Shown piece after piece: positions 18,445 to 55,171 of a stretch of DNA of 56,988 nucleotides. Origin of the DNA: Squalus acanthias (Eukaryota); assembly GCA_030390025.1 (NCBI GenBank), contig JASTWF010000322.1, forward strand, positions 496,001-552,988, read 5' to 3'. A model generated the notes under the pieces. The model was not told where the DNA came from. It ran no database searches and worked only from the letters and a program-made list of their open reading frames with translations. The position numbers and the translations under genes were made by a program. The number at the start of each line of letters is the position of its first letter. The first letter of the stretch is position 1.

Positions 18445-18669
18445 GAGGTGTGACAAAATGCTGGTCATTTTTTTATTAAAGGCCGAGGTTCGTGGTCAAA
18501 CTTTTGTTGAGTGTTTTGCACATGATCTCCAGGTTGTGAGAACCAGTTATGGTAATGACTGTTTTTTTGTGTTTATTTGTATGAGTTTGTCATGAAGAAA
18601 TGACACACACAGAGTTTGTAAAATAAATAAGTTTTGGTACTCAAAATATACATGTTTGGTGTTTGGAAT

Positions 18670-20302
18670 TGTAGAATTCGCAATTATCGCGATTTCATTT
18701 TAATAAGGAGAAAACACAAAGTTTCGTTCAAAACAGCTTTTATTTCAGCGGAATGCTGTCAGGTTTAAATTGGACACAAGCAGCCTGTAAAATGGCCGCC
18801 GCACCTCGTGACAGAACATTCTAGACTTTTCAACAGGCAGACAAGATGGCGTTCCAATAAACATTTTTGCAGGATCGATAACGATTCAGCACAGTGAAGA
18901 CAATACACAGGACATTATGGGTTTACAGTATAAACATCGATACTGGAATCGGTCTCCCAGGTACAAAGGAAAGCCATCAAGGGCCCATCCAAAGGACATT
19001 AGTATGTAAACTCCCAACGGCTCTACGATGAGAGAGCCGTTAGCAGGTAGTTATACAGGACACTTGGAAGCCCCAAACCCCTCCAGGGGGAACACCGACC
19101 GATTTAACAATGGGAGAAATATTAACAGGTACTCAAACATTCAGGAGTAGCCCCGAAACCCATTAAGGACAGAGATCACCCATACAGGACATTTTGGGCG
19201 CCAAACCGTTAAACAAAAGAATGGACATTGTAGTTGGGCGGGAAACGGAAGAACTGTGCACTATAATTGCAGGCCCAAACCGTCCATTCGCTCTCTTGCT
19301 CTTGGCTCTTGCCTCGTGTTCTTGACTCTTGCCGCTTGTTGCTGTTATCATCGTGGCTGCTCCTGTGTTTTATCCGGTCGATTCGTAACCTCGTGGCTGC
19401 TCCTGTGTAAAAGACTGTTGCAAAGACCTATGTTGGTAGCGGGCAGCGGAACCAAAGGCCCGAGATGAGATGAGATGAGATGAGAGGAGAAGAGAAGAAG
19501 ACCTTATCCATCGCCACGGTCAGTAAATCCCGACCGCGCCTGTAGGTCGATCAGCCAAGTCTTCTCGACAGGAAGTTTTCTTCGTTAAACTTTTAACAAG
19601 ACATATTGCATCAATGATAACTGGACTGTGCAAACACATCGTATCAGCGATATTGACAACGGTGCTCCACCATACCCTGTATCCAACCAACAGAGGTCTT
19701 CACTACAGCGGACGGTCCAGCCGACTGACCGAGCAGCAGAAGCAGTAAACAAGTGGGACCAGGAGATCTCCTGACCAACACGTGGGTGCTGCGGTGAAAA
19801 ACATCCGATCAGCTATTCGGGATTTCTCCGAGTTATTACGAGTGGTGAGCATGAGTCTCGGGATCCTACGAAGCTAGTTTAGGACAGACATTGATAGGGG
19901 AGGGTTTAAAGTTTAAGGATATTTGTAATGTGTGCCCTATTTACGTTGTGCTGGTCGTTCCTCGTTTCCCTAAGAGTGATTATAACTGTTTGTAAGATTG
20001 TACTGTCATTAATCTGTGCATATGACATGTATTTCATAATTTTAAGTATCATGCAATAAAGATTTTCCATTTCGTACCGTTCAAACCAAGTCTACATGAG
20101 TTTTATCTCCATTACTGCTCTCGCATCTAAGTCCAGTGTCTAGAACCGTAAGGGAGAGTGATTCGAACCACTCACAGGGGTGTCTAGTGTTCCCAGACTG
20201 GCTGGAGACCAGGCCTAGACCCGCACTGACATACAGGCTGCACAGAGCCGCGTGAATCTCACAGGCTACGAGACACGCAGGGTCAGGAGAGTATCCCTTA
20301 CA
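18670..20302 (+). repeat. 5' LTR (1633 bp)
   Basis: TGTAGAATTCG...CCCTTACA; near-identical to 29643-31275; TATAAT 19262, AATAAA 20055, (GATGA)n ~19464. Confidence 0.96.
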
Positions 20303-20306
20303 GAAA

Positions 20307-22118
20307 ATGGCGACCGCGGCAGGACACTGGCAGCGAGAGGGTAGTGTGTTAGATTTTGGAATGACTGTACGAAATGTGATGCAGGAAAAGATAGCGGATT
20401 ACGTATTTGGAAAGGTTAATCTAACGAAAAAGTGGATAAGCGAATTGTTAGCGGATAAGAGCCCACTAGAGGCAGCTGAAAGGTGGACGGATAGTAAGGA
20501 GCATAAAAAGGCAGTTGAGAAAGCAGTCTGGCTTATGTGCTACAAAAGGCAGGTTCAGATTTCAAACCAGACCAATACAGCGCTAACCGCTCGAATCAAG
20601 CAGTTAGAGGAGGAAATGGAGGAGAAGGTTTCTGGAGGGGAGGCGCTCATTAAGAGTTTAAATGAGTTACGCCAGGAAAGCCAGGAAGTCTCCAGTTACC
20701 TTAAAACAAGGGTAGAGTATCTCGAGTGCCAGATCACTGAAGCAAAATTAAACGAGAGTAGGATGAAGGAAAGATGTAACCGTCAAGCTGCCCAGATAAG
20801 AACTCAAGAAGAGAGCTTAATGGGGGTTAGGTCGGCGTATAAGTTGGCCCTTGAGGATAAGTTTCAGGGAGCCGACCATAGCGCCTGCGAAAAAGAGATA
20901 GAGAGCCTCAAAAAGGCCGTGAATAATGCGAACGGCATGGTGTGCCTTATTAATCCGTCGGCCCGCCAGCCGCTAGTAACTGAGAGATTTAGAAATTCCC
21001 CACCAAGTAAAGCAGAAGAAGTAGTAGCCAGTGCGCCCTCCGCGCCACCCAGCTATTCAGAAACCTGGGTTAGGGAGGAAGCAACGGAAGAAGCAAAAGA
21101 GCCCGTTGAAAAGGAGGTAGAAAAGGGATCGTTGTATCCAGTAACGGGGATTAAAAGGGGCCCAAGCAGAAACGGTGGGGAAGAACCGGGGGATCTCCTC
21201 GGACAGCTGGTGTTGCCTCACAGTTCACATCAGCTGAGGGCCATGATAAACCACGTAAGGAAGCTGACCGAGATAGACGACCCTTCCGTACATTTCAGGG
21301 AAGTTGAGCAAGCCGCAGCCATCAACGGCTGCGATGATGGGGAGACAGCAAAAATGCTGCTGTTCTCATTAGATAGCTCGGTCCTTCAGTGTCTCTCAGG
21401 CGATAGCAAGAGGGGTAATAAAAGTTATGAGGAATTGAAAAATGAGGTCCTAGAAGTAGTGGGAGCGAACGACGGAGGTCCGTTTGCTAGAGTGGGACAG
21501 ACAGTGCAGATGGAGGGAGAACCCCCGAAGGTTTTTGCCGACAGGCTGTGGCCAGTATATGAGCGCAGCTGTCTAGGTGCGCCCGAGCGCGAAGATGTGG
21601 AAGGCGCCGCTTTAATTCATTGGCTTAGGTGCATAATAGCCAACAGTTTACCAGCCGTTAGAGAGCAGGCAAAAGCCTGGTTCGATCCCAATGACCTCAA
21701 CCTTACGGAAGAGTCGGTCTTGAATCGACTCACGTTAGGTTACCGTAACATAAGGGGTATGACGACACGTCCCTTTAAGGGAAGAGTACATGAGGTACGA
21801 CCCGCAGCCCCGACTCAAAGAGAGTGGCATCAGGAGGGTAATCGCGCCCCACAGGCAAGTAATGCCTGTTACGGGTGTGGGAAGACAGGGCACTGGCGCA
21901 AGCACTGCAGGAACCCTTGGAAGGATTCCAAGGATAAAAATCCCGCGGTCCGAGCCCAGGCGCCTGTCCCGGCTAAGGAAGCAAAGGCACCCACCTCTCC
22001 CGAAGACCTCGAAGCAGTGTTAGGAGTCATGCGCAAGATGGTTTTGAATGCGCGTGGACAGGTGGCGGTCGCAACCGGCCCCGTAGGTGCCGCAGGACCG
22101 TCTAATAGTGCCCCATGA
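20307..22118 (+). CDS. gag: Gag polyprotein (603 aa)
   Basis: N-terminal coiled coil, PSAPPSY late motif, MHR-like QMEGEPPKVFADRL, single CCHC knuckle CYGCGKTGHWRKHC. Confidence 0.92.
   Translation: MATAAGHWQREGSVLDFGMTVRNVMQEKIADYVFGKVNLTKKWISELLADKSPLEAAERWTDSKEHKKAVEKAVWLMCYKRQVQISNQTNTALTARIKQLEEEMEEKVSGGEALIKSLNELRQESQEVSSYLKTRVEYLECQITEAKLNESRMKERCNRQAAQIRTQEESLMGVRSAYKLALEDKFQGADHSACEKEIESLKKAVNNANGMVCLINPSARQPLVTERFRNSPPSKAEEVVASAPSAPPSYSETWVREEATEEAKEPVEKEVEKGSLYPVTGIKRGPSRNGGEEPGDLLGQLVLPHSSHQLRAMINHVRKLTEIDDPSVHFREVEQAAAINGCDDGETAKMLLFSLDSSVLQCLSGDSKRGNKSYEELKNEVLEVVGANDGGPFARVGQTVQMEGEPPKVFADRLWPVYERSCLGAPEREDVEGAALIHWLRCIIANSLPAVREQAKAWFDPNDLNLTEESVLNRLTLGYRNIRGMTTRPFKGRVHEVRPAAPTQREWHQEGNRAPQASNACYGCGKTGHWRKHCRNPWKDSKDKNPAVRAQAPVPAKEAKAPTSPEDLEAVLGVMRKMVLNARGQVAVATGPVGAAGPSNSAP
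20308..20325 (+). other. Primer-binding site, tRNA-Arg(TCG)
   Basis: TGGCGACCGCGGCAGGAC is the reverse complement of GTCCTGCCGCGGTCG-CCA, the 3' end of vertebrate tRNA-Arg(UCG) as recalled. Confidence 0.85.
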
Positions 22119-25100
22119 CTAGAACCAGCACAGCCCGTCTACCTGTGTCCGCTCAGCTATGATGCGTGGAGGCGACCTGTGGTGGAGATGGAGGTAGAGA
22201 AACAAAAGGGCAGTTATTTGTTGGATACGGGAGCTTCTTGCACCATAATCCATACAGATGACCCTTTTGACTCGCCGCTATCTACCAAGGTCCCATTCAC
22301 GCTAGCAGGGTTCACGGGGAAAGAACAGGCTGGCACGTTTTCCCTCCCGTTATCCATTCGGTTAGGAACACTTCGCCTTAAGTGGAAGTGTATACTGATG
22401 GCATGGCAAAAGGGGGGTGGAAGAGGTATTCTCGGGTCCGATCTGCTAGCGGGACACGGGATCCTCGTGGACCTCAGAAATCACTGTCTCTGGGGGGCTA
22501 AAGGTGAAAAAGGCGAGGTAATGGTGATTCAAGGGGAGGAAGAAACAGGGGTCCTGTGTACCGTACAGCCATCCGGAGGCTACGACCTCAGGCTTATGGT
22601 CGCAGATGTCCCAACGGACATGCAAACGTACGTGACAGATAATATGCACGCGTTTGCAACCCACAAGCACGATTGTGGGAGGGTGGTCGGGTTTGAGGTC
22701 AGCGTAGATGGGGACCCCATGACCCGACCCCAAAAGCAGTATAACTTCCCCAAAGAAGCAGAACCCGATATGGAGGCAGCAATGTCTTCCTTGGTGCAGC
22801 AGGGCGTGTTGAGGCCGATAGCCACACACGTGAACTCCCCATTATGGCCGGTTAGGAAGCCGGATAATTCGTGGAGAGCCACGGTGGACTACAGAGTCCT
22901 TAACAGTAACATCCCCGCCTGCGCGCCCACAGTAGCAGCAGTTGCTGACCTAATAGGGAGCATCCCAGCGTCCGCGACCACGTTCACGGTGCTGGATATC
23001 TCGAACGGTTTTTGGTCCATCCCGCTGCGGCGAGAGGACCAGTACAAGTTTGCCTTTACGTTTAAAGGGCAACAGTACACGTGGAACTGCTTGCCACAAG
23101 GTTTCCACAATAGCCCCAGTATTTTTCACCAGTGTATGGCAGGAAGCTTAAAGGAGTTTAGTCAGCCCAATCAGATAGTACAGTATGTGGATGATTTGCT
23201 CCTATTTACGGACTCAAGGGAGGAGCACGGACCACTACTGGACGAGTTATTGGAGCTGTTAGCGAGAAAGGGTTTTAAAGTAAACCCAAAGAAAGCACGT
23301 ATCGGTCAGCAGGAAGTAAAATTCCTGGGACTGACCCTACGCGCTGGGGAAAGAGCCATAGACAAAGCAAGGAGGGAGTCGGTGCAAGAATTACCGATTC
23401 CCAACAACGTAAGGGGTGTGAGGTCCTTCTTGGGACTGACCGGTTACTGCAGGGATTTTATCGAGGATTATGCGGCCACAGCGGCGCCGCTCCTCCGACT
23501 CCTCCATAAGGGAGTAGAGTGGCTTTGGGACGAGGGCTGCCAAGCAGCCTTCGAGAAGTTAAAAAGGGATCTGCAGACCGCGCCAGCCTTAGGGGCCATA
23601 GATGGGGGGAAGGAGTTTTTCCTGGAGGTAGCTGCCAGCGGAGACAGCTTAAGCGCCGTGCTGCTCCAAGAGCGTCACGGCAAGCTGAGGCCGGTTGTCT
23701 ATTCATCCAGGGTATTAACGGATGTGGAGAGAAGTTTTTCCAATTGCGAAAGGCACCTTTTAGCCACGCATTGGGCTGTGAAAAGATCAGCGATCTTCAC
23801 AGGGCTCTCTCCCATCACTCTCCTCACACATCACACACCAACTAAGATGCTTCTGGATGGGAGGATTAAAGACGGGACCGTAAGCAGCGCACGCATTGCG
23901 CGTTGGACCCTTCTTCTCTCCCAGTTGGACATCAGAGTAAAAGGTCTTTGCGAGCCCAGGCTTGCGGCCAATTTGGTATACCCCGGTACAGCCCACCGGT
24001 GTTCGGTGGAAGGGGTGTGGGACGTCAACATAGGTTTACGGGCCGGGATACATCCCACTGGGCGCGAGATTTATGTTGATGGGTCTAGCACAGTATCTGC
24101 TGGCGAGCGACTCACAGGGTGTGGAGTTTATGACCCTGCGGCAGACCTTGCCCTGGCGATCAAGCTCCCTAGCACCATGAGCGCGCAGCAGGCTGAGCTG
24201 TCTGCCGTGGTGTACGTGGTAACCCACCCAGACATTTTCCCAACCCCATACACGATTTGCTCGGACAGTATGTTCACCTGCAATTCGTGTACGGAATACC
24301 TGGCCATTTGGTCCCGCCGTGGATACACCTCCGCGGACGGGCGACCTTTAACGGTAAAGCCCTTGCTGGAGAAGATCTTAGCAGCAGCAGTAGGGGAGGA
24401 AGGGGAGATTTTCATCCATAAGGTGAAAGCTCACTCCTCCACAGAGCCCCGTGGGGAGGGCAACCGGCAGGCGGATGCGCTAGCCAGGGAGGGTGCCCGC
24501 GACGGTACTTTCTGGAACCCCTATAGAACCGGACCCATAGCAGCGGTCCGAGGCGGGGACGGGAATACCGGGAACACCAGGGTAGCATTGCCCCTAGACC
24601 TTAAGACCGTCCAAGCCCAGGATCCCGCCCTAAAAGCAGTCCTAAAAACGATTGCTGAGGGGAGGCAGGTAGAAGGTCCGTACAGTACGGCAACCCTCTC
24701 AGTTAAGGAAGGCATGCTGTTCCGCGAGGAGCAGTGGGTTGTGCCGCAGCAGCACAGGAGGGAATTCCTCCAGTTGGCTCACGAGGGACCAGGGGCAGGG
24801 CACCCCGGGCCCGAGGTTACCTGGCAACGGGTAGAGCAAGCGGGATGGTGGCCAGGGCTCAGGGAACAAGTCCGCGAGTTCTGTGCAAACTGTCTTGTGT
24901 GCGCTGCAAATAACCCAGACCCCCAGAAAAGGAAGGTGCCCATGGGACACGTAAGAAGGGTAGAGGGACCATGGCAGTCGATACAGATCGACTATATAGG
25001 ACCCCTGCCCACCACCCAGGGAGGTTATAAGTACTGCCTCGTCCTGGTGGATGTGTTTTCCAAGTGGGTGGAAGCCTTCCCTTGTCGAACAGCTACGGCA

Positions 25101-26621
25101 CTGGGTACTGCAAAAATCTTGGTCCGGGAAGTGTTCTCGCGGTGGGGACTCCCCCGTTTTGTGGAGTCAGACCAAGGGAGTCATTTCACCGGCCAGGTGA
25201 TGCAGAACACCCTCATGCTTTTGGGCATTGAAGGGAAGTGGCACGTAGCACACAATCCCCAGTCATCCGGGATTGTTGAGCGTATGAACCGGACCCTGAA
25301 GGAGAAATTGAGGAAAGAGACTAGGAACTCGCCCCAAAAATGGGCGGAAGTTCTGCCTTTAGTCCTCATGGGGGTCCGGGCCAGTCAGTCAAAAAGTACG
25401 GGGTACTCCCCGCACGAGGTAATGACCGGCAGGCTCATGCGAACCCCCACCCATGTGCTAGCCCCGGTGCTCACTGAGGGTCAGCTTCAAGAGATCAGCA
25501 GGGACAAGTTCGCCCAAACTCTCTTGGAGCGCCTGAAGCAAGTTTATGAGCAGGCGGCTGGGAACATGGGAAGGCAGCACCAGGGCAATCGCTTGTTGCT
25601 GGAACCCCGCAAAACGCGGGAGTGGGAAGTAGGAGACCAGGTCATGGTCAGAAACTACGCCAGAGTAGGGAGTCTGGAACCACTGTATATGGGACCCTAC
25701 AACATTGTAGACAAGGCAAGTCCCATGGTTTACGCCGTAAAAGTACCTCGGCGCACTAAGTGGTTCCACATAAACCAATGTAAACTGTACCAGCCGGGTG
25801 CGCAAGGGAAAACTACAGGGGTAAATCCCGCCAATGGGAAAACACAGCCCCAGGTAGGACCACAAGGCACACAGGCAGGCGTAGCAGCTTGCATCAGGGG
25901 AAGGGACATCCCGGACGATCATGCAGCGTTTTTCTGGAGTTGGGGGTTAGATGACGAGGACCCCAGGGTACCCTGGTCAGATGAGGATAGTGCAGATGAG
26001 CATAGTGATGATGACGGGTGGTTTCAGAGGAACGGTCTGGGAGGATTGGGGCCGCTAGGTAGAGATCCATACGGGGTGGACACACAAGCTGCAGGTCCCG
26101 ACAGCAGGAGGAAGGAGCTAGAGGAGGCCGGGCCAGCCGCTATGTGGTTCCCAGAGGTGTGGCCGCCCGCTTTGAACGTCCAGTCCTCAGGGGAGGCAGA
26201 GTTCGCGAGTGAAGGGCCGCCTGCTGGGCCGAGCAGGGCGGGGCCCCGAACTGCCAGCCCCGAGGTTAGGGAGGCGGAGTCAGCGGAGGCGGGGCTGGCG
26301 CCTGTGATGGAACCCCAGGTCATCCCGTTGAAGGTCTCGGGACCCGGTCCGTCCGTCACGGAGCCCCCGCCCATAGCAATTCCCCGTAGGTCAAGCAGAG
26401 TACCCCAGCCCAGGAAGATGTGGTCAGGTCCACAGGCTGCCCCAGGGCGTAAGTTTCAGGTTAAGATAACCCGGGTAGAGACAGGCCACATCGAAGCAGT
26501 AACAGGCTGCGGCAGATCAGAGGAAAGGGTCAGCGCAGCAACAGGCTGCGGCAGATCAGAGGGAAGGGTCAGTGCCCTCCCACCGTCGGGAAGAGCTCGC
26601 AGCAGCCTTCTCAGGATTTAA
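22119..26621 (+). CDS. pol: Pol (PR-RT-degenerate RNase H/tether-RNase H-IN plus C-terminal extension), in frame with gag
   Basis: LLDTGAS; LPQGFHNSP and YVDD; FLEVAAS...ERHLLA...LLTHH (degenerate RH); IYVDGSS...AELSA...SDS...HKVKAH...NRQADALA (RH); H-H-CLVC zinc motif; IDYIG/SDQGSHF/VERMN; GPY motif. The frame is open from the gag stop onward. Confidence 0.95.
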   Translation, partial: LEPAQPVYLCPLSYDAWRRPVVEMEVEKQKGSYLLDTGASCTIIHTDDPFDSPLSTKVPFTLAGFTGKEQAGTFSLPLSIRLGTLRLKWKCILMAWQKGGGRGILGSDLLAGHGILVDLRNHCLWGAKGEKGEVMVIQGEEETGVLCTVQPSGGYDLRLMVADVPTDMQTYVTDNMHAFATHKHDCGRVVGFEVSVDGDPMTRPQKQYNFPKEAEPDMEAAMSSLVQQGVLRPIATHVNSPLWPVRKPDNSWRATVDYRVLNSNIPACAPTVAAVADLIGSIPASATTFTVLDISNGFWSIPLRREDQYKFAFTFKGQQYTWNCLPQGFHNSPSIFHQCMAGSLKEFSQPNQIVQYVDDLLLFTDSREEHGPLLDELLELLARKGFKVNPKKARIGQQEVKFLGLTLRAGERAIDKARRESVQELPIPNNVRGVRSFLGLTGYCRDFIEDYAATAAPLLRLLHKGVEWLWDEGCQAAFEKLKRDLQTAPALGAIDGGKEFFLEVAASGDSLSAVLLQERHGKLRPVVYSSRVLTDVERSFSNCERHLLATHWAVKRSAIFTGLSPITLLTHHTPTKMLLDGRIKDGTVSSARIARWTLLLSQLDIRVKGLCEPRLAANLVYPGTAHRCSVEGVWDVNIGLRAGIHPTGREIYVDGSSTVSAGERLTGCGVYDPAADLALAIKLPSTMSAQQAELSAVVYVVTHPDIFPTPYTICSDSMFTCNSCTEYLAIWSRRGYTSADGRPLTVKPLLEKILAAAVGEEGEIFIHKVKAHSSTEPRGEGNRQADALAREGARDGTFWNPYRTGPIAAVRGGDGNTGNTRVALPLDLKTVQAQDPALKAVLKTIAEGRQVEGPYSTATLSVKEGMLFREEQWVVPQQHRREFLQLAHEGPGAGHPGPEVTWQRVEQAGWWPGLREQVREFCANCLVCAANNPDPQKRKVPMGHVRRVEGPWQSIQIDYIGPLPTTQGGYKYCLVLVDVFSKWVEAFPCRTATALGTAKILVREVFSRWGLPRFVESDQGSHFTGQVMQNTLMLLGIEGKWHVAHNPQSSGIVERMNRTLKEKLRKETRNSPQKWAEVLPLVLMGVRASQSKSTGYSPHEVMTGRLMRTPTHVLAPVLTEGQLQEISRDKFAQTLLERLKQVYEQAAGNMGRQHQGNRLLLEPRKTREWEVGDQVMVRNYARVGSLEPLYMGPYNIVDKASPMVYAVKVPRRTKWFHINQCKLYQPGAQGKTTGVNPANGKTQPQVGPQGTQAGVAACIRGRDIPDDHAAFFWSWGLDDEDPRVPWSDEDSADEHSDDDGWFQRNGLGGLGPLGRDPYGVDTQAAGPDSRRKELEEAGPAAMWFPEVWPPALNVQSSGEAEFASEGPPAGPSRAGPRTASPEVREAESAEAGLAPVMEPQVIPLKVSGPGPSVTEPPPIAIPRRSSRVPQPRKMWSGPQAAPGRKFQVKITRVETGHIEAVTGCGRSEERVSAATGCGRSEGRVSALPPSGRARSSLLRI

Positions 26622-26905
26622 AGGGGCCGCCCTGAGAACGGGCGGCATTGTAAAGTTATTAGTTTAAGGTGATAAGTATTAGTTTAAAGTTTTAAGTAGT
26701 TTTAATAAGGTTAAGTTTGTAGTGTTTTTAACAGATGACGACATAATGATGGGAGTTTTAAGGCTAGGTTTAGAGGAAGTCTATTTAGCAAACGTTGAAG
26801 TTTACGTGAGGCGAGGTCAGGGGACCCGCTCACCCTTCACAAAAGCCAGAGACTTTTTGCGAGGCTGGCTACCTCATTCTATCTGATCACAGGAACCAAG
26901 GAAGG

Positions 26906-29257
26906 ATGGAACGACTTCTAGTTTTGCTCGTGGCAATCGGATGTGGATTGGCCTATCGGGGCCTCACCAAGGATGTCGTGGTGTTTGGATGTTCCGGGGA
27001 CACGGCCCCCATCGCGGTGGATGGGACCGGAAGACGGAAGGCAGAAGGGACCAGCACCTATTTCCACAAGGGAAGGTGGCCAGGATGGCTGGGAACGAAC
27101 TCAACGGAGTATTCCAGCACATCGGGGTTCGCCTACAGAGAGACTTCTTTAATGTGCCCCAAAGTACGGATCATCGCACCCAGGATCAGCGTCACCGTCG
27201 GCAAACGGATTTGTTTGACCTGCAGTGGGAATGTCCCATTGAGCCGATGGTGGTGGCTGCGAAAGCTGAGCAAAACTATGAGGAACTCTTCGGTTGAGTG
27301 GGAGCGACTGGGTAATAATACCCATCGGACAATTACGGGGACAGATGGACAAGTGAAAGTCTGTTGGGACAAATGGTGGGAACCGGATGAGGGGATTTAT
27401 GTTTGTATGTGGGGGTCAAAGTACGTTTGCCCCAAAGGCATCTCCATATTCTTTATTAACCAGTGGCAGGATAACGGACAGGGGATGAGGTGGGATGCGA
27501 GCACCAGGGGGTGCGGAGCCCCATACTCTCCGATCCCAGTAAATGCCACTGAGCTCATTACGCGCCCACGCAAAGCCCCGCCCACGATTCCGGTAGTTCT
27601 AACTGAGGAAGAAGGGTGCCCTAAAACTAGTAAGGGACCCGGGAACGGTTTGGTACTGGTCCCCACAGACCAGATACTATTTCAGGGAGTGCATTACGCG
27701 GTGGCCTCGGTGATTTTAAATCTCACTGAGGTACGGTTACCAGAGTGGTGCCCCAAAAAGACGGAACAGTTGTACCAGGTCCTGTTGACCAAGATGTTCA
27801 GGCAATTTTACGAGTTTGATTTTGCAGAAATTGATAAGACAAGTTTATACACCGCACCGCAGGAAGTTTTGGACCAAGTAGGGAGGCAAAGAAGGGGTTT
27901 GGTGAACGATGCGTTCACTGCTTTTAATACAGGGACATCTGTGGTCAACGCTCTAGACAGTGTGGAGCTGCAGACCCAGATTAATGGTTTAAAAACACAG
28001 TTAAAGGATATTCTTACAGATGAGAATAAAGTGGTAGGGTCGGGTCTGCACGAGGACCAAGCCATGACACTACACTTAAAGGAAATCATAGCAGAGCTGG
28101 AGAAACATGCGCGTACGGTAAATGCCCTGATTAGGGAAGATCGGAATGCATCCGATCAGGCTGCGCAGAACGAGGTGTGCGTGCTTTACGGGGCGTGGTT
28201 ACTGGGCGAGTTCCGCAGTAATTTGGAGGATTTAAAACAAGGTTTGGTCCCGTCCTGGATAAGTAACAAACACCTGCGGGCGCTCCACCCTTTTCAGAAC
28301 GCATTAAGTCCGTGCCAGCTCAGGCTAGCTTCAGAAGCTTACCCAGTCCCCGTGGACTGCGGACGTTCAAACCATACTATTATGGGAATAGTATTACGCA
28401 TGCCGGTTTTGGGCAACACAGCAAAGCCCGCCCCGGTGTATCGGGTAGAGAACATTGGTGTCATTCAGGGGGGAGCCCACATTCGTTATGCAGCGGTTCC
28501 ACCTTACGTCATCCGCTGGGAGCAAACGATGACAGGTACAGATCTCTCTGGTTGTCGTGGCAGGGGAGCACACATAATACTGTGCCCCCAGCACTTGAAT
28601 GCCTTTTTAACACCACAGTGCGGGTTCAGAACGGCTGGCGCCAAGTCCATGAATTGCACCATGGAGGCAATGGCACAAGATCATGTGCCTCCGCAGGTAG
28701 CATACATCGGGGGTGGAACATATTGTGTTACCACTGCAGCGCAACACTACCAGCATGGAAACCGTAGCCGGTGTCCGGTGAGTGACAGCAGTTTCTGTTT
28801 TAAACCCAGGGCTGAAGTTCAAGTAGCACAACAGCGAATTATCCCAATCCCTGAACCATCCACTGTTCATCTCACAGTAAAAGAGAATTTTACCGACTTG
28901 CAGCGATTTGTCACACATTTTGGGTACCTCATTCCCCCTCTCCCCGAGCATTTAACCAAACTTCTGAAAGCCGTCGCGGTGTCACAAAAGCATTTCTATA
29001 CATTAGAACAGAAAACCGTCGAGATAGGTACAGACATTTTGGACATAGTGGTTCCACCGTGGTGGAATCTGTTCACGAATATTGAAGTGCCCTCATGGGT
29101 CAGAATAGCCTCCCACATTTTAGTCGTCTGTCAAGTGTTTATTGTAGTATACCTTTTGTTCATACATTGTAAAAGAGACAAGCGCCTCACCAAGCATGAG
29201 AACACGGGAGAGTGGCGAGAACGTTACGTGCGCGTGCACGATGAGAGCGCAGTGTAA
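26906..29257 (+). CDS. env: Env glycoprotein (783 aa): signal peptide, Ig-like domain, furin site, F-protein-like fusion subunit, TM
   Basis: MERLLVLLVAIGCGLA signal; C106...W...DEGIYVC167; RQRR|GLVNDAF (aa 327-330); heptad repeat; Cys-rich block; TM IASHILVVCQVFIVVYLLFIHC; splice acceptor ctgatcacag at 26892. Confidence 0.9.
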   Translation: MERLLVLLVAIGCGLAYRGLTKDVVVFGCSGDTAPIAVDGTGRRKAEGTSTYFHKGRWPGWLGTNSTEYSSTSGFAYRETSLMCPKVRIIAPRISVTVGKRICLTCSGNVPLSRWWWLRKLSKTMRNSSVEWERLGNNTHRTITGTDGQVKVCWDKWWEPDEGIYVCMWGSKYVCPKGISIFFINQWQDNGQGMRWDASTRGCGAPYSPIPVNATELITRPRKAPPTIPVVLTEEEGCPKTSKGPGNGLVLVPTDQILFQGVHYAVASVILNLTEVRLPEWCPKKTEQLYQVLLTKMFRQFYEFDFAEIDKTSLYTAPQEVLDQVGRQRRGLVNDAFTAFNTGTSVVNALDSVELQTQINGLKTQLKDILTDENKVVGSGLHEDQAMTLHLKEIIAELEKHARTVNALIREDRNASDQAAQNEVCVLYGAWLLGEFRSNLEDLKQGLVPSWISNKHLRALHPFQNALSPCQLRLASEAYPVPVDCGRSNHTIMGIVLRMPVLGNTAKPAPVYRVENIGVIQGGAHIRYAAVPPYVIRWEQTMTGTDLSGCRGRGAHIILCPQHLNAFLTPQCGFRTAGAKSMNCTMEAMAQDHVPPQVAYIGGGTYCVTTAAQHYQHGNRSRCPVSDSSFCFKPRAEVQVAQQRIIPIPEPSTVHLTVKENFTDLQRFVTHFGYLIPPLPEHLTKLLKAVAVSQKHFYTLEQKTVEIGTDILDIVVPPWWNLFTNIEVPSWVRIASHILVVCQVFIVVYLLFIHCKRDKRLTKHENTGEWRERYVRVHDESAV

Positions 29258-29630: not shown

Positions 29631-29642
29631 AACAGGAGGGAC
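29631..29642 (+). other. Polypurine tract
   Basis: aacaggagggac immediately before the 3' LTR TG. Confidence 0.75.
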
Positions 29643-31275
29643 TGTAGAATTCGCAATTATCGCGATTTCATTTTAATAAGGAGAAAACACAAAGTTTCGT
29701 TCAAAACAGCTTTTATTTCAGCGGAATGCTGTCAGGTTTAAATTGGACACAAGCAGCCTGTAAAATGGCCGCCGCACCTCGTGACAGAACATTCTAGACT
29801 TTTCAACAGGCAGACAAGATGGCGTTCCAATAAACATTTTTGCAGGATCGATAACGATTCAGCACAGTGAAGACAATACACAGGACATTATGGGTTTACA
29901 GTATAAACATCGATACTGGAATCGGTCTCCCAGGTACAAAGGAAAGCCATCAAGGGCCCATCCAAAGGACATTAGTATGTAAACTCCCAACGGCTCTACG
30001 ATGAGAGAGCCGTTAGCAGGTAGTTATACAGGACACTTGGAAGCCCCAAACCCCTCCAGGGGGAACACCGACCGATTTAACAATGGGAGAAATATTAACA
30101 GGTACTCAAACATTCAGGAGTAGCCCCGAAACCCATTAAGGACAGAGATCACCCATACAGGACATTTTGGGCGCCAAACCGTTAAACAAAAGAATGGACA
30201 TTGTAGTTGGGCGGGAAACGGAAGAACTGTGCACTATAATTGCAGGCCCAAACCGTCCATTCGCTCTCTTGCTCTTGGCTCTTGCCTCGTGTTCTTGACT
30301 CTTGCCGCTTGTTGCTGTTATCATCGTGGCTGCTCCTGTGTTTTATCCGGTCGATTCGTAACCTCGTGGCTGCTCCTGTGTAAAAGACTGTTGCAAAGAC
30401 CTATGTTGGTAGCGGGCAGCGGAACCAAAGGCCCGAGATGAGATGAGATGAGATGAGAGGAGAAGAGAAGAAGACCTTATCCATCGCCACGGTCAGTAAA
30501 TCCCGACCGCGCCTGTAGGTCGATCAGCCAAGTCTTCTCGACAGGAAGTTTTCTTCGTTAAACTTTTAACAAGACATATTGCATCAATGATAACTGGACT
30601 GTGCAAACACATCGTATCAGCGATATTGACAACGGTGCTCCACCATACCTTGTATCCAACCAACAGAGGTCTTCACTACAGCGGACGGTCCAGCCGACTG
30701 ACCGAGCAGCAGAAGCAGTAAACAAGTGGGACCAGGAGATCTCCTGACCAACACGTGGGTGCTGCGGTGAAAAACATCCGATCAGCTATTCGGGATTTCT
30801 CCGAGTTATTACGAGTGGTGAGCATGAGTCTCGAGGTCCTACGAAGCTAGTTTAGGATAGACATTGATAGGGGAGGGTTTAAAGTTTAAGGATATTTGTA
30901 ATGTGTGCCCTATTTACGTTGTGCTGGTCGTTCCTCGTTTCCCTAAGAGTGATTATAACCGTTTGTAAGATTGTACTGTCATTAATCTGTGCATATGACA
31001 TGTATTTCATAATTTTAAGTATCATGCAATAAAGATTTTCCATTTCGTACCGTTCAAACCAAGTCTACATGAGTTTTATCTCCATTACTGCTCTCGCATC
31101 TAAGTCCAGTGTCTAGAACCGTAAGGGAGAGTGATTCGAACCACTCACAGGGGTGTCTAGTGTTCCCAGACTGGCTGGAGACCAGGCCTAGACCCGCACT
31201 GACATACAGGCTGCACAGAGCCGCGTGAATCTCACAGGCTACGAGACACGCAGGGTCAGGAGAGTATCCCTTACA
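29643..31275 (+). repeat. 3' LTR (1633 bp)
   Basis: Same length as the 5' LTR; followed by TSD GAAT; AATAAA at 31028. Confidence 0.96.
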
Positions 31276-31367
31276 GAATCATTGGTGCCTTGGCCGGCTT
31301 AGGGGTTGCGTGTTGGGTTCATTCATGCTGTTCTCAATGGCAGAAGCCATTTCCACAACAGGGGCCC

Positions 31368-48573: not shown

Positions 48574-50385
48574 ATGGCGACCGCGGCAGGACACTGGCAG
48601 CGAGAGGTTAGTGTGTTAGACTTTGGAATGACTGTACGAAATGTTATGCAGGAAAAGATAGCAGATTATGTGTTCGGAAAGGTTAATCTAACTAAGAAGT
48701 GGATAAGTGAATTGTTAGCGGATAAAAGCCCGCTAGAGGCAGCCGAAAGGTGGACAGATAGTAAAGAACATAAAAAGACGCTTGAGAAAGCAGTCTGGCT
48801 TATGTGTTACAAAAGGCAGGTTCAGATTTCAAACCAGACCATTACAGCGCTAGTAGCTCGAATCAGTCATTTAGAGGGAGAAATGGATGAGAAGGTTTCT
48901 GGAGGGGAGGTGCTCATTAAGAATTTAAATGAGTTGCACCAAGAAAGCCAGGAAATCTCCAGTCACCTTAAAACAAGGATAGATTATCTCGAGTGCCAGG
49001 TCACTGAGGCAAAGTTGAATGAGAGCAGGTTAAAGGAAAGAGGTAACCGCCAAGCTGCCCAGATAAGAATTCAAGAAGAGAGCTTAACGGGGGTTCGGGC
49101 GGCATATAAGTTGGCCCTTGAGGATAAGTTTGAGGGAGCCGACCATAGCGCCTGCCAAAGGGAGATAGAGCACCTCAAGAAGGCCGTGAACAAAGCGAAC
49201 GGCATGGTGTGCCTGATCAGTCCGTCAGCACACCAGCCGTTAGTAGGTGAGAAGTTTAAGAAATCCCCACCAAGTAAAGCAGAAGAAGTAGTAGCCACTG
49301 CGCCCTCCGCGCCACCCAGCTATTCGGAAACCTGGGTAAGGGAGGAAGCAATGGAAGAAACAAAAGAGCCCATTGAGAAAGAAGTAGGAAAGGGACCGTT
49401 GTATCCAGTAACGGGTATTAAAAGGGGCCCAAACAGAAACGGTGGGGAAGAACGGGGGGATCTCCTCGGACAGCTTGTGTTGCCTCACAGCTCACACCAG
49501 CTGAGAGCTATGATAAATCACGTACGGAAGCTAACCGAGTCAGACGACCCTTCCGTACATTTCAGAGAAGTTGAGCAAGCCGCAGCCATTAACGGCTGCG
49601 ATGATGGGGAAACAGCAAAAATGCTGCTGTTCTCACTAGACAGCTCGGTCCTCCAGTGTCTCTCGGGCGAGAGCAAGAGGGGAACCAAGAGTTATGAGGA
49701 ATTGAGGGACGAGGTCCTGGAAGTGTTGGGGGCGAACGATGAAGGTCCGTTTGCTAGAGTGGGACAGACAGTGCAGATGGAGGGAGAACCCCCGAAGGTT
49801 TTTGCCGACAGGCTGTGGCCAGTATATGAGCGCAGCTGCCTAGGTGCGCCCGAGCGCGAAGATGTGGAAGGCACCGCTTTAACTCATTGGCTTAGGTGCA
49901 TAATAACCAACAGTTTACCAGCCGTCAGAGAGCAGGCAAAAGCATGGTTTGATCCCAATGACCCCAACATTACGGAAGAGTCGGTCTTGAATCGACTCAC
50001 GTTAGGATATCGCAATATAAGGGGTATGGCAACACGTCCCCTTAAGGGAAGAGTACATGAGGTACGACCCGCAGCCCCGTATCAAAGAGAGTGGCATCAG
50101 GAGGGTAATCGCGCCCCACAGGCAAGTAATGCTTGTTACGGGTGTGGGAAGACAGGGCACTGGCGCAAGCATTGCAGGAACCCTTGGAAGGATTCCAAGG
50201 ATAAAAATCCCGCGGTCCGAGCCCAGGCGCCTGTCCCGGCTAAGGAAGCTAAGGCACCCACCCCTCCCGACGACATCGAAGTAGTGTTAGGAGCCATGCG
50301 CAATCTAATCTTGAGTGCACGTGGACAGGTGGCGGTCGCAACCGGCCCAGTAGGTGCCGCAGGACCGTCTAATAGTACCCCATGA
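48574..50385 (+). CDS. gag: Gag of provirus 2 (603 aa)
   Basis: Same motifs as copy 1; ends TGA-CTAG. Confidence 0.92.
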   Translation: MATAAGHWQREVSVLDFGMTVRNVMQEKIADYVFGKVNLTKKWISELLADKSPLEAAERWTDSKEHKKTLEKAVWLMCYKRQVQISNQTITALVARISHLEGEMDEKVSGGEVLIKNLNELHQESQEISSHLKTRIDYLECQVTEAKLNESRLKERGNRQAAQIRIQEESLTGVRAAYKLALEDKFEGADHSACQREIEHLKKAVNKANGMVCLISPSAHQPLVGEKFKKSPPSKAEEVVATAPSAPPSYSETWVREEAMEETKEPIEKEVGKGPLYPVTGIKRGPNRNGGEERGDLLGQLVLPHSSHQLRAMINHVRKLTESDDPSVHFREVEQAAAINGCDDGETAKMLLFSLDSSVLQCLSGESKRGTKSYEELRDEVLEVLGANDEGPFARVGQTVQMEGEPPKVFADRLWPVYERSCLGAPEREDVEGTALTHWLRCIITNSLPAVREQAKAWFDPNDPNITEESVLNRLTLGYRNIRGMATRPLKGRVHEVRPAAPYQREWHQEGNRAPQASNACYGCGKTGHWRKHCRNPWKDSKDKNPAVRAQAPVPAKEAKAPTPPDDIEVVLGAMRNLILSARGQVAVATGPVGAAGPSNSTP

Positions 50386-53300
50386 CTAGAACCGGCGCAG
50401 CCCGTCTACCTGTGTCCGCTTAGCTATGATGCGTGGAAGCGACCTTTGGTGGAGATGGAGGTAGAGAAACAGAGGGGTAGTTATTTGTTGGACACGGGAG
50501 CTTCTTGCACCATAATCCATACAGATAACCCTTTTGACTCGCCGCTATCTACCAGGGTCCCATTCACGTTAGCGGGGTTCACAGGAAAAGAACAGGCTGG
50601 CACGTTTTCCCTTCCGCTATCCATTCGTTTAGGAACACTTCGCCTTAAGTGGAAGTGTATACTGATGGCATGGCAGGAGGGGGGTGGAAGAGGTATTCTC
50701 GGGTCTGATCTCCTAGCGGGACACGGGATCCTCGTGGACCTCAGAAATCACTGTCTCTGGGGGGCTAAGGGTGAAAAAGGCGAGGTAATAGTGATTCCGG
50801 GGGAGGAAGAAACAGGGGTCCTGTGTACCGTACAGCCATCCGGAGGCTACGACCTCAGGCTTATGGTCGCAGATGTCCCAACGGACATGCAAACGTACGT
50901 GTCAGATAATATGCACGCGTTTGCAACCCACAAGCACGATTGTGGGAGGGTGGTCGGGTTTGAGGTCAGCGTAGATGGGGACCCCATGACCCGACCCCAA
51001 AAGCAGTATAACTTCCCCAAAGAAGCAGAACCCGATATGGAGACAGCAATGTCCTCCTTGGTGCAGCAGGGCGTGTTGAGGCCGATAGCTACACACGTGA
51101 ACTCCCCATTATGGCCGGTTAGGAAGCCGGATAATTCGTGGAGAGCCACGGTGGACTACAGAGTCCTTAACAGTAACATTCCCGCCTGCGCGCCCACGGT
51201 AGCAGCAGTTGCTGACCTAATAGGGAGCATCCCAGCGTCCGCGACCACGTTCACGGTGCTGGATATCTCGAACGGTTTTTGGTCCATCCCGCTGAGGCGA
51301 GAGGACCAGTACAAGTTTGCCTTTACTTTCAAAGGACAACAGTACACATGGAACTGTCTGCCACAGGGTTTCCACAATAGCCCCAGTATTTTCCATCAGT
51401 GTATGGCAGGAAGTTTAAAGGAGTTTAGTCAGCCCAATCAGATAGTGCAGTATGTGGATGATTTGCTCCTATTTACGGACTCAAGGGAGGAGCATGGACC
51501 ACTACTGGACGAGTTATTGGAGCTGTTAGCGAGAAAGGGTTTTAAAATAAACCCTAAGAAGGCACGTATCGGTCAGCGGGAAGTAAAATTCCTGGGACTG
51601 ACCATACGCGCTGGGGAAAGAGCCATAGACAAAGCAAGGAGGGAGTCGGTGCAAGAATTACCGATTCCCAACAACGTAAGGGGTGTGAGGTCCTTCTTGG
51701 GACTGACCGGTTACTGCAGGGATTTTATCGAAGATTATGCGGCCACAGCAGCGCCGCTCCTCCGACTCCTCCATAAGGGGGTGGAGTGGTTTTGGGACGA
51801 GGGCTGCCAAGCAGCCTTCGAGAAGTTAAAAAGGGATCTGCAGACCGCGCCAGCCTTAGGGGCCATAGATGGGGGGAAGGAGTTTTTCCTGGAGGTAGCT
51901 GCCAGCGGAGACAGCTTAAGCGCCGTACTGCTCCAAGAGCGTCACGGCAAGCTGAGGCCGGTTGTCTATTCATCCAGGGTGTTAACGGATGTGGAGAGAA
52001 GTTTCTCCAATTGCGAAAGGCACCTTTTAGCCACGCATTGGGCTGTGAAAAGATCAGCGATCTTCACAGGGCTCTCTCCCATCACTCTCCTCACACATCA
52101 CACACCAACTAAGATGCTTCTGGATGGGAGGATTAAAGACGGGACCGTAAGCAGCGCGCGCATTGCGCGTTGGACCCTTCTTCTCTCCCAGTTGGATCTT
52201 AGAGTAAAAGGTCTTTGCGAGCCCAGGCTTGCGGCCAATTTGGTATACCCCGGTACAGCCCACCGGTGTTCGGTGGAAGGGGTGTGGGACGTCAACATAG
52301 GTTTACGGGCCGGGATACATCCCACTGGGCGCGAGATTTATGTTGATGGGTCTAGCACAGTATCTGCTGGCGAGCGACTCACAGGGTGTGGAGTTTATGA
52401 CCCTGCGGCAGACCTTGCCCTGGCGATCAAGCTCCCTAGCACCATGAGCGCGCAGCAAGCTGAGCTGTCTGCCGTGGTGTACGTTGTGACCCACCCAGAC
52501 ATTTTCCCAACCCCATACACGATTTGCTCGGACAGTATGTTCACCTGCAATTCGTGTACGGAATACCTGGCCATTTGGTCCCGCCGTGGATACACCTCCG
52601 CGGACGGGCGACCTTTAACGGTGAAGCCCTTGCTGGAAAAGATCTTAGCAGCAGCAGTAGGGGAGGAAGGAGAGATTTTCATCCATAAGGTGAAAGCTCA
52701 CTCCTCCACAGAGCCCCGTGGGGAGGGCAACCAGCAGGCGGATGCGCTAGCCAGGGAAGGTGCCCGCAACGGCATTTTCTGGAACCCCTATGGGACCAGA
52801 CCCATAGCAGCGATCCGAGGCAGGGACGGGAATCCCGGGAACACCAGGGTAGCATTGCCCCTAGACCTTAAGACCGTCCAAGCCCAGGATCCCGCCCTAA
52901 AAGCAGTCCTAAAAACCATTGCTGAGGGGAGGCAGGTAGAAGGTCCGTACAGTACGGCAACCCTCTCAGTTAAGGAAGGCATGCTGTTCCGCGAGGAGCA
53001 GTGGGTTGTGCCGCAGCAGCACAGGAGGGAATTCCTCCAGTTGGCTCACGAGGGACCAGGGGCAGGGCACCCCGGGCCCGAGGTCACCTGGCAACGGGTA
53101 GAGCAAGCAGGATGGTGGCCAGGGCTCAGGGAACAAGTCCGCGAGTTCTGTGCAAACTGTCTTGTGTGCGCTGCAAACAACCCAGACCCCCAGAAAAGGA
53201 AGGTGCCCATGGGACACGTAAGAAGGGTAGAGGGACCATGGCAGTCGATACAGATCGACTATATAGGACCCCTGCCCACCACCCAGGGAGGTTATAAGTA

Positions 53301-54922
53301 CTGCCTCGTCTTGGTGGATGTGTTTTCCAAGTGGGTGGAAGCCTTCCCTTGTCGAACAGCTACGGCACTGGGTACAGCAAAAATCTTGGTCCGGGAAGTG
53401 TTCTCGCGGTGGGGACTTCCCCGTTTTGTGGAGTCAGACCAAGGGAGTCATTTCACCGGCCAGGTGATGCAGAACACCCTCATGCTTTTGGGCATTGAAG
53501 GGAAGTGGCACGTAGCACACAATCCCCAGTCATCCGGGATTGTTGAACGCATGAACCGGACCCTGAAGGAGAAATTGAGGAAAGAGACTAGGAACTCGCC
53601 CCAAAAATGGGCGGAAGTTCTGCCTTTAGTCCTCATGGGGGTCCGGGCCAGTCAGTCAAAAAGTACGGGGTACTCCCCGCACGAGGTGATGACTGGGAGG
53701 CTCATGCGAACCCCCACCCATGTGCTAGCGCCGGTGCTCACTGAGGGCCAGCTCCAAGAGATAAGCAGAGACAAGTTCGCCCAGACTCTCTTGGAGCGCC
53801 TGAAGCAGGTTTATGAACAGGCGGCTGGGAACATGGGAAGGCAGCATCAGGGCAATCGCTTGTTGCTGGAACCCCGCAAAACGCGGGAGTGGGAAGTAGG
53901 AGACCAAGTCATGGTCAGAAACTACGCCAGAGTAGGGAGTCTGGAACCACTGTATATGGGACCCTACAACATTGTAGACAAGGCGAAGTCCCATGGTTTA
54001 CGCCGTAAAAGTACCTCGGCGCACTAAGTGGTTCCACATAAACCAATGCAAACTGTACCAGCCAGGTGCGCAAGGGAAAACTACAGGGGTAAATCCCGCC
54101 AGTGGGAAAGCACAGCCCCAGGTAGGACCACAAGGCACACAGGCAGGCATAGCAGCTTGCATCAGGGGAAGGGACATCCCGGACGATCATACAGCGTTTT
54201 TCTGGAATTGGGGGTTAGATGAGGAAGAATTCAGGGTACCCGGGTCAGATGAGGATAGTGCAGATGAGGATAGTGATGACGACGGGTGGTTTCGGAGGAA
54301 CGGTCCCGTTTACGATATGGAGGGAATGGGGGCTGCAGATAGAGATCCACACAGGGTGGACACACAAGCTGCAGGTCCCGAAGACAGGAGGGAGGAGCTA
54401 GGGGAGGCGGGGCCAGCCGCTATGGGAGCACAGAGAGTACCGGTGTGGCTCCCAGAGATGTGGCCGCCCGCTTTGAACGTCCCGTCCTCGGGGGAGGCAG
54501 AGATCACGAGTGAAGGGCCGCCTGCTGGGCCGAGCAGGGCGGAGCCACAAACTGCAAGCCCCGAGGTTAGGGAGGCGGAGTCAGCGGAGGCGGAGCCAGC
54601 GACTGTGGTGGAACCCCAGGTCATCCCGATGGAAGTCTCGGAACCCGGTCCATCCGTCACGGAACCCCCGCCCATAGCAACTCCCCGTAGGTCAAGTAGA
54701 GAACCCCAGCCCAGGAGGATGTGGTCATGTCCCCAGACTGCCCCAAGGCGTAAAATTAAGGTTAAGATAACCCAGATACAGGCCGGCCACATCGCAGCAG
54801 TAACAGGCTGCGGCAGATCAGAGGGAAGGGTCAGTGCCCTCCCACCGTCGGAAGAGCTCGCAGCAGCCTTCTCAGAATTTAAAGGGGCCGCCCTGAGAAC
54901 GGGCGGCACTGTAAAGTTATAA
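50386..54922 (+). CDS. pol: Pol of provirus 2 with a +1 frameshift at ~53985 (after the IN core)
   Basis: ORFs 50446-54027 and 53993-54922; aaggcGaagtccc versus copy-1 aaggcaagtccc. Confidence 0.88.
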
Positions 54923-55171
54923 GTTTTAAGTTTTAAGTTTATAGTTCAAGGTTAAGTTTATAGTTTTTTTGATAAGGTTAAGATTGTAGTGTTTTTAACA
55001 GAAAACGATAAAATGATGGGAGCTTTAAAGATAGGTTTAGTTAAAGTTTATTCAGCGAACGTGGAAGTTTACGTGAGGCGAGGTCAGGGGACCCGCTCAC
55101 CCTTCACAGAAGCCAGAGACTCTTGCGAGGCTGGCTACCTCATTCTATCTGATCACAGGAACCAAGGAAGG

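What the first reader, a model, noticed from the sequence alone, without database searches (positions are those of the whole stretch)
22110..22181. Gag-Pol made by UGA-CUAG stop-codon readthrough
Seen: the gag stop TGA (22116-18) is followed by CTAG and 20 open codons (LEPAQPVYLCPLSYDAWRRP) leading in the same frame into the protease. The context is identical in copy 2 (50383-50389). Known: UGA-CUAG is the strong readthrough context of AQP4/MDH1/LDHB, and UGA-CUA is used by some alphaviruses, whereas gamma/epsilon retroviruses read through UAG. The GTG start given by the ORF track is therefore probably not the real pol start.
Basis: partly seen in the sequence, partly recalled or inferred. Interest (0 to 1): 0.75.

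Follow-up and report, generated by a model that had tools for sequence, protein, structure and literature searches.

The report
Leaky gag stop in fish provirus
A young endogenous retrovirus, most likely of a shark or ray, has a UGA stop followed by CUAG between its shell gene and its enzyme gene, so it probably makes its enzymes by reading through that stop, a known retroviral trick done here with the leaky signal of host genes and alphaviruses instead of the usual retroviral one.

Summary
Observation confirmed. A provirus with open gag, pol and env frames (LTRs 18670-20302 and 29643-31275, 5 differences) has gag-TGA-CTAG-pol in one frame; copy 2 has the same seven bases. The stop is inherited: Gag relatives at 43-53% identity end within one residue of it. 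The codons before the GTG encode the protease's first strand, so the GTG is not the pol start. Gag-Pol by readthrough is the best explanation (about 0.85; CUAG as the stimulator about 0.7). It is inferred, not measured. What appears unreported is the UGA-CUAG context: a 2026 review lists none for retroviruses, and relatives with DNA use UAG-GG or UAG-CGC. A distant lokiretrovirus subgroup shows UGA-CUA in 5 of 6 readable published junctions and CGA-CUA in the sixth, unremarked in that paper's text. A downstream stem is not established, and splicing is not excluded. New variant of a known kind.

The parts
18666..18669 (.). 4-bp target-site duplication GAAT, left copy (right copy 31276-31279)
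18670..20302 (+). 5' LTR of copy 1, 1633 bp, TGT...ACA
   Evidence: 5 differences from the 3' LTR
20308..20325 (+). likely primer-binding site (TGG...), overlapped by the gag ATG at 20307; tRNA not identified
   Evidence: position inferred from the LTR end
20307..22118 (+). gag, 603 aa, one CCHC zinc knuckle, ends in TGA
22116..22122 (+). TGA-CTAG junction, inferred readthrough site; A at -1
22119..22178 (+). 20 startless codons: spacer plus first strand of the protease
   Evidence: Pfam RVP match starts at codon 17; HIV-1 protease residues 5-35 align to codons 16-46; related motif in relatives
22125..22185 (+). predicted stem-loop 6 nt after the stop; not established
   Evidence: -26.7 kcal/mol, z -2.13; 2 of 23 pairs broken in copy 2; 10 of 63 control windows score as well
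22119..26621 (+). pol: protease, RT (YVDD), tether, RNase H, integrase, C-terminal extension; no start codon before the protease's first strand
26906..29257 (+). env with RQRR cleavage motif; features resemble paramyxovirus-type F0 (lead only)
29643..31275 (+). 3' LTR of copy 1
48574..50385 (+). gag of copy 2, 603 aa
50383..50389 (+). TGA-CTAG junction of copy 2
50386..56988 (+). pol and env of copy 2; pol frame broken near 53985, env frame broken near 55121; runs off the window end

Best explanation
This is the programmed gag-pol junction of a recently integrated endogenous retrovirus of a cartilaginous fish (host inferred from relatives). Most ribosomes on the full-length RNA stop at the UGA and release Gag. 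A minority decode the UGA with a near-cognate tRNA, helped by the CUAG after it and a purine before it, and continue in frame to make a Gag-Pol of about 2,100 residues that the protease then cuts. This sets the ratio of shell to enzymes. Shown: layout, inherited stop position, coding nature of the post-stop codons, selection on pol. Inferred: that readthrough happens, that CUAG drives it, its rate (a few percent, by analogy with 1.5-31% in reporters) and the residue inserted. A 3' stem may add to it but is not established.
For: (1) Same frame, one stop, no other stop for 1500 codons. (2) Protease homology starts at codon 16-17, before the GTG (codon 21) and ATG (codon 24); 43 ATGs lie between the presumed promoter region and that ATG. 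(3) Pol differs between the copies at 75 synonymous and 23 non-synonymous of 1190 codons. (4) Gag relatives end 12-13 residues after the same conserved motif: skate P0151, P0153, P0154 (51%), P0155 (53%), P0156, P0182 (43% by best stretch, 37% overall). (5) Retroviral loci with DNA keep an in-frame stop here: 9 of 10 gamma-type loci, L001, L013, L015, L016, L017, L022. (6) UGA-CUAG is a tested readthrough motif; deleting CUAG nearly abolished readthrough (PMC4132726 passages). (7) CTAG after TGA is rare here, 1 of 162. (8) In 3 of 4 sequencing runs, contigs with an unrelated gag end join the stretch 1-2 bases before the TGA (table 7). (9) Published lokiretrovirus consensuses: Ofa, Cne, Pyo, Sau have UGA-CUAG, Bsp UGA-CUAA, Pfl CGA-CUAA at the gag end (read by eye), like the opal/arginine switch in alphaviruses.
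Against: No translation or RNA data. DNA for the junction was read base by base in only two copies, 93% identical; the run evidence does not print the matched bases, and shows 40 of 103 variant rows and 22 of 57 loose-end rows. The nearest named Pol relatives had no DNA; the coelacanth model P0006 has Q-G-C at the same spacing, which points to a UAG-GG-type junction (inferred). The lokiretrovirus subgroup is distant, so it supports the motif's use, not this element's. The predicted stem is not kept in copy 2 (z +0.84). CTAG is also a possible splice acceptor, with a branch-point-like CTAAT about 20 nt upstream.
Confidence: 0.72

Rival explanations
1. Readthrough happens, but CUAG is incidental: it is kept for the Leu-Glu peptide near a cleavage site or by descent, and a downstream RNA structure does the work.
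For: A 61-nt stem starts 6 nt after the stop in copy 1; such stems raise alphavirus readthrough 3- to 14-fold (PMC3159437 passages). About 33 nt after the stop seem kept in divergent contigs. Other UGA retroviruses lack CUAG.
Against: Two of 23 pairs break in copy 2, no pair before 22207 has probability over 0.1 in both copies, and 10 of 63 control windows fold as well. One stem-breaking variant (22171) is common in two runs. Leu is one of six codons, yet CTA recurs in the lokiretrovirus junctions.
Confidence: 0.13
2. Pol is made from a spliced RNA that uses the AG of CTAG as acceptor and skips the stop, loosely as foamy viruses use a separate pol RNA.
For: CTAG is a YAG with CTAAT 20 nt upstream. 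Two weak donors in gag (21838, 21859; 6 of 9 consensus matches) are in the needed phase and kept in copy 2.
Against: Poor pyrimidine tract: 124 of 374 YAG sites in the coding region rank above it. The LTR donor at 19845 has no ATG in the needed phase. The sequence before the stop differs wholly in divergent contigs. Splicing would not need the stop to be in pol's frame.
Confidence: 0.07
3. Pol starts on its own at GTG 22179 or ATG 22188 by internal initiation or reinitiation (an ATG also overlaps the stop as AUGA).
For: ATG 22188 has a fair context; gene callers start relatives here (P0004).
Against: The product would lack the first 9-12 residues of the protease by alignment to HIV-1 protease. 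Relatives have V or C, not M, at that place. The GTG is not kept in copy 2. The AUGA ATG opens only a 15-codon frame out of phase.
Confidence: 0.03
4. The UGA is read as selenocysteine or edited in RNA.
For: The codon is UGA and a stem lies close behind it.
Against: No SECIS among 5 Rfam matches at E up to 2 over 18600-31400, all below gathering score. Homologous junctions are UAG or sense codons.
Confidence: 0.02
5. The TGA is a recent nonsense mutation in a once-fused gag-pol gene.
For: Fused gag-pol exists: 10 of 24 lokiretrovirus consensuses are annotated so; the coelacanth model has Gln at this place.
Against: Both copies share it, Gag relatives at 43-53% identity stop at the same place, pol is under purifying selection and the LTRs are nearly identical.
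Confidence: 0.01

Closest known systems
Snakehead retrovirus and the SnRV-related, class III-like ERVs ('clade Huo' of Xu et al. 2018, PMC6001957; Ovex1, PMC2717909)
   Same: gag and pol in one frame with one stop shortly before the protease; presumed suppression; L001 (read as SnRV from its UAGGGC junction) has YVDD, one zinc knuckle and 36% identity over RT-tether
   Different: SnRV has UAG-GGC and Ovex1 an amber codon; the window element lies outside the SnRV+gamma/epsilon group in the RT-tether tree (SH-aLRT 99); no env similarity to L001
Gammaretroviral UAG-G plus pseudoknot readthrough (MoMLV)
   Same: Gag-Pol by in-frame readthrough between zinc knuckle and protease
   Different: UAG-GG with a compact pseudoknot after an 8-nt spacer; here UGA-CUAG, and no conserved structure shown
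UGA-junction retroviruses: SSSV (UGAAGA), ZFERV (UGACGA), cane-toad RMERV (UGAAGU), XtERV-S (TGA)
   Same: UGA between in-frame gag and pol in aquatic hosts; readthrough presumed, not tested
   Different: The three listed contexts are not CUA; the XtERV-S context was not seen; different lineages
UGA-CUAG readthrough of vertebrate genes (OPRL1, OPRK1, AQP4, MAPK10, MDH1) and type II alphavirus readthrough
   Same: Identical seven-base signal, purine at -1
   Different: Here it gates the enzymes of a retrovirus; alphaviruses add an extended conserved stem, not shown here
Lokiretroviruses (Wang and Han, PMC7947760)
   Same: Dual RNase H, F-like env features, and a subgroup with UGA-CUA(G) at the gag end
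   Different: RT groups elsewhere; CCHC Gag and compact protease-RT spacing; none was found in the 6 cartilaginous-fish genomes that paper screened

Membership tests
Endogenous retrovirus (Retroviridae-like) | [quoted passage not shown] | tested here: met
Endogenous retrovirus (Retroviridae-like) | PR-RT-tether-RNase H-IN order with two RNase H-like domains | tested here: met
   Pfam RT_RNaseH_2 470-558 and RNase_H 650-793
Endogenous retrovirus (Retroviridae-like) | RT groups with retroviruses, not Ty3/gypsy | tested here: met
   SH-aLRT 99 split in both trees; best PDB matches are MLV-type and foamy-type RTs
Programmed Gag-Pol stop-codon readthrough | gag and pol in one frame with a single inherited stop between zinc knuckle and protease | tested here: met
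Programmed Gag-Pol stop-codon readthrough | measured fusion product or reporter readthrough | not testable with these tools
   no ribosome profiling, proteomics or reporter
Type II readthrough signal (UGA-CUA/CGG) | hexanucleotide UGACUA or UGACGG | tested here: met
   definition
Type II readthrough signal (UGA-CUA/CGG) | conserved 3' stem-loop after a short spacer, as in many alphaviruses | tested here: inconclusive
   present in copy 1, weakened in copy 2, not above control windows
Type III gammaretroviral signal | UAG-G context | tested here: not met
Type III gammaretroviral signal | H-type pseudoknot 8 nt downstream | not tested
   the folding programs used do not predict pseudoknots
Gamma/epsilonretrovirus (class I) | RT inside the gamma/epsilon clade | tested here: not met
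Lokiretrovirus | RT inside the loki clade | tested here: not met
   the one loki-type row (P0030, assigned by eye against the paper's supplement) lies across a 99-supported split; no named loki sequence was in the tree
Lokiretrovirus | Env related to paramyxo/pneumovirus F | tested here: inconclusive
   Atlas feature score 0.93 to PF00523 clusters; no Pfam or PDB sequence match; fold failed, pLDDT 33
SnRV-related / class III ('clade Huo') | RT clusters with SnRV or ERV-L | tested here: inconclusive
   sits in a weakly resolved grade with frog, coelacanth and turtle Pol between ERV-L-like rows and the SnRV+class I group; no named ERV-L, foamy or ERV4 reference in the tree
Foamy virus (spliced pol) | pol in a separate frame with its own ATG; Gag without zinc knuckle | tested here: not met
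   same frame, no ATG before the protease's first strand, CCHC present; pol-frame feature, zinc-finger feature

The most novel reading that the evidence does not exclude
Aquatic retroviral lineages have more than once swapped the UAG-G plus pseudoknot signal for the host's own structure-free UGA-CUAG signal: once in this shark/ray lineage, at the codon where its relatives have UAG-GG, and again in a lokiretrovirus subgroup that also shows the opal/arginine switch known from alphaviruses. Gag-Pol output would then follow the host tissue's UGA-CUAG leakiness, and the signal may even go back to the ancestor of lokiretroviruses and retroviruses.
Probability: 0.35. Interest if true: 0.62.

Novelty: new variant of a known kind. 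Interest (0 to 1): 0.47.

Why it matters
Only UAG readthrough of gammaretroviruses has been shown by experiment among retroviruses. A type II UGA-CUAG junction would add a second signal class to the family, link it to host and alphavirus readthrough, and give a short cassette to test whether sequence context alone can set a Gag to Gag-Pol ratio. It also corrects annotation: gene callers and the lokiretrovirus paper start pol at a downstream GTG, TTG or CTG and cut off the start of the polyprotein. It does not change the basic picture of how retroviruses make Pol.

Tried and rejected
No whole genome is held for this window, so copies could not be counted. No close DNA relative in viral contigs with the single protein; the alignment search gave 12 loci there and 79 in metagenomes, none above 41% over RT-tether. 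The exact 20-base junction pattern had 0 matches in viral and prokaryotic genome contigs. No RNA holder listed among 24 runs. No joint into 22123 in the 4 runs laid on 21700-22500; the only joint was 21927-22270 in a DNA run, and the one RNA label is a guess, so this tests splicing poorly. No variant row at 22115-22153, but only 40 of 103 rows are shown and such a gap is unremarkable at that density. Lokiretrovirus membership, my first guess from the Env, was rejected by the RT trees. Env fold failed (pLDDT 32.9); no fold search was run. Rfam gave nothing at gathering score. The first tree kept 80 of 137 rows and is the quick search, as the careful one did not finish. Of 17 TGACTAG hits in the lokiretrovirus supplement, 4 were at a gag end and 13 were not; the search misses motifs split by line ends and the file is cut. 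The Ape consensus lacks the junction; the Bsp consensus shifts frame further down, before the protease motif; 17 of 24 consensuses were not examined at the junction. Paper searches for 'UGA CUAG'+readthrough+retrovirus, 'UGA-CUAG'+'endogenous retrovirus' and lokiretrovirus+readthrough gave 0 papers; CUAG+readthrough+gag-pol gave 17, of which I read passages of 2. Earlier scan findings: none by sequence or by the first word set.
Full report
Observation. TGA at 22116-22118 ends gag and is followed by CTAG and a 1500-codon open frame in the same phase. Twenty codons precede GTG 22179; the first ATG is 22188 and the catalytic Asp is codon 36. Copy 2 has TGACTAG at 50383-50389, but its next 20 codons differ at four and its GTG is TTG. 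CTAG follows 1 of 162 TGA triplets in the element, and TGACTAG occurs only at the two gag stops in the window. The copies are about 93% identical and count as one lineage.

What the element is. Copy 1 is a provirus: LTRs 18670-20302 and 29643-31275 with 5 differences, a GAAT duplication, gag with one zinc knuckle, pol with protease, RT (YVDD), tether, RNase H and integrase, and env. Copy 2 has frame breaks in pol and env and runs off the window. The named relatives of Gag and Env are from skate (51% and 75%) and sawshark, so the host is most likely a cartilaginous fish (inference). Apart from one unnamed protein at 82%, the closest Pol relatives are frog and coelacanth models at 44-46%. Two quick trees (80 of 137 rows on RT; 42 chosen rows on RT-tether) place it among retroviruses and apart from gypsy and the one loki-type row; the second puts it outside the SnRV plus gamma/epsilon group (SH-aLRT 99), in a poorly resolved grade. 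Labels of unnamed rows are my inference: L001 as SnRV from its UAGGGC junction, L002-L011 as gamma-type, L017 and L022 as ERV-L-like, P0030 as loki-type. No named foamy, ERV-L or ERV4 sequence was in the trees, so no genus or clade is assigned.

The stop is inherited. Skate Gag P0151 aligns over 99% of the window's Gag and ends at the same place. P0155 and P0156/P0182 end one residue later after the same motif; P0155 comes from a short contig, so its end is less secure. A catshark Gag at 26% was too distant to place. Pol differs between the copies at 75 synonymous and 23 non-synonymous codons of 1190; gag at 73 and 66 of 603.

The GTG is not the start. The Pfam protease model matches from codon 17, HIV-1 protease residues 5-35 align to codons 16-46 (weak E-values, best 2e-5), and relatives keep a similar P-L-x-x-D-x-x-G-R-P-x-V stretch there. 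A product from codon 21 or 24 would lack the first strand, which by established knowledge forms part of the dimer interface of retroviral proteases.

Is CUAG selected? Direct DNA for close relatives was not available. Laying contigs of four runs from four coded organisms on 21700-22500 gave cover in all bins; in three runs, contigs with an unrelated gag end join the stretch at 22114 or 22115, and some leave it at 22148-22150. This suggests an island from the stop to about +33 kept in divergent subfamilies, but the matched bases are not printed and the tables are cut (40 of 103, 22 of 57 rows). One contig (X18 piece 11) spans the junction with a single difference elsewhere. Among loci with DNA, 9 of 10 gamma-type loci have TAG-GG (one record is out of frame), L001, L013 and L016 have TAG-GG, L014 and L015 TAG-CGC, L017 TAG-AGG and L022 TGA-AGG; none has TGA-CTAG at an in-frame gag junction. 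The coelacanth model has Q-G-C at the same 36-codon distance from the Asp, which suggests that near relatives had a UAG-GG junction and this lineage changed signal (inference from one protein model). Independent support for the motif comes from the lokiretrovirus supplement, read by eye and cross-checked against the annotated Gag ends where given: Ofa, Cne, Pyo and Sau have UGA-CUAG, Bsp UGA-CUAA, Pfl CGA-CUAA in a fused gene, Ape lacks the region. That is 7 of 24 consensuses examined; 10 of 24 are annotated as fused.

Structure. Copy 1 folds a stem at 22125-22185 (-26.7 kcal/mol, z -2.13), copy 2 does not (z +0.84). Two changes keep pairing as G-U, two break it; 10 of 63 control windows reach the same z. 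A stimulatory stem is therefore not established. Pseudoknots were not tested. No SECIS was found.

Splicing. CTAG could be an acceptor: a branch-like CTAAT lies 20 bases upstream and two weak gag donors are in phase. The pyrimidine tract is poor (124 of 374 sites rank higher), the LTR donor supplies no ATG in phase, and the upstream sequence is not kept in divergent contigs. No usable RNA data were found, so this rival stays open at low odds.

Mechanism. Most ribosomes release Gag at the UGA; a minority insert an amino acid and make Gag-Pol. Layout, inheritance and coding are shown; the event, its rate and the role of CUAG are inferred from tested cases (UGA-CUA alone 1.5%, OPRL1 31%, loss on deleting CUAG).

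Comparison with what is known. The 2026 review PMC13517186 lists UAG contexts for gammaretroviruses and SnRV and UGA contexts UGAAGA, UGACGA and UGAAGU for three aquatic retroviruses, untested, and UGACUA only for alphaviruses and a triatovirus. XtERV-S has an in-frame TGA and Ovex1 an amber codon. So readthrough and even UGA are known; the CUAG context in a retrovirus was not found in my searches, which cover open-access papers only. Two earlier scan notes report TGA junctions in a diatom copia and a Euglena element; they are unchecked and suggest that leaky UGA junctions are common in retroelements, which tempers surprise.

Papers seen. PMC7947760: parts 1-3 of 4 of the text, term searches, supplement parts 8 and 46 and search passages (file cut). 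PMC4422223: part 1 of 2. PMC13517186: outline, abstract, passages. PMC4132726, PMC3159437, PMC8278194, PMC2717909, PMC6001957, PMC12193657, PMC10435555, PMC12440569 and bioRxiv 10.1101/2023.10.26.564294: passages. PMC9040795: term search with no hits. The XtERV-S sequence is in a figure, and supplements of the shark and vertebrate ERV surveys (PMC4422223, PMC6001957, PMC10435555) were not read; they may hold this family and its junction. LDHB, ERV4 and the role of the protease's first strand are recalled, not checked.

Verdict. Real, and most likely a readthrough junction (about 0.85 in all; 0.72 with CUAG as driver). A new signal variant of a known retroviral mechanism, with an unremarked parallel in lokiretroviruses. 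Interest 0.47.

Noticed in passing
window 20303-20325 and 48574: The gag ATG overlaps the presumed primer-binding site, 5 bases after the LTR, so there is almost no leader; skate and other Gag relatives also begin MAT.
   Followed up: partly
window 26906-29257: Env has paramyxovirus F0-like features (Atlas 0.93) and a weak Ig-like stretch near its start, on a Pol that is not lokiretroviral; relatives only in skate and sawshark, faint match to L013.
   Followed up: partly
window 18670-20302 and 29643-31275: Long LTRs (1633 bp) with 5 differences and three open genes: a very young insertion. TATAA at 19262 and AATAAA at 20055 suggest a long R region; a donor-like site at 19845 lies before the primer-binding site.
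   Followed up: partly
PMC7947760 supplement, Dataset S1: Lokiretrovirus consensuses Ofa, Cne, Pyo, Sau (UGA-CUAG), Bsp (UGA-CUAA) and Pfl (CGA-CUAA); the main text has no hit for readthrough or stop codon.
   Followed up: partly
L002-L007, L009 gag ends: Several gamma-type loci contain TGAC-TAG across their junction, the same seven letters one base out of frame; probably coincidence.
   Followed up: no
window 22114: A C-to-A variant giving CAA before the stop is seen in all 4 runs laid; skate Gag also ends in Gln.
   Followed up: no
window 22207-22265: A second hairpin over the protease active-site codons has high pair probability in both copies.
   Followed up: no
window 25790-26621: Pol carries a long acidic, proline-rich tail after integrase with indels between the copies.
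   Followed up: no
window 36287-46906: A 50-bp tandem array of about 214 copies abuts copy 2's LTR, whose 5' LTR is shorter by gaps than copy 1's; the same unit lies at 3552-5003.
   Followed up: no
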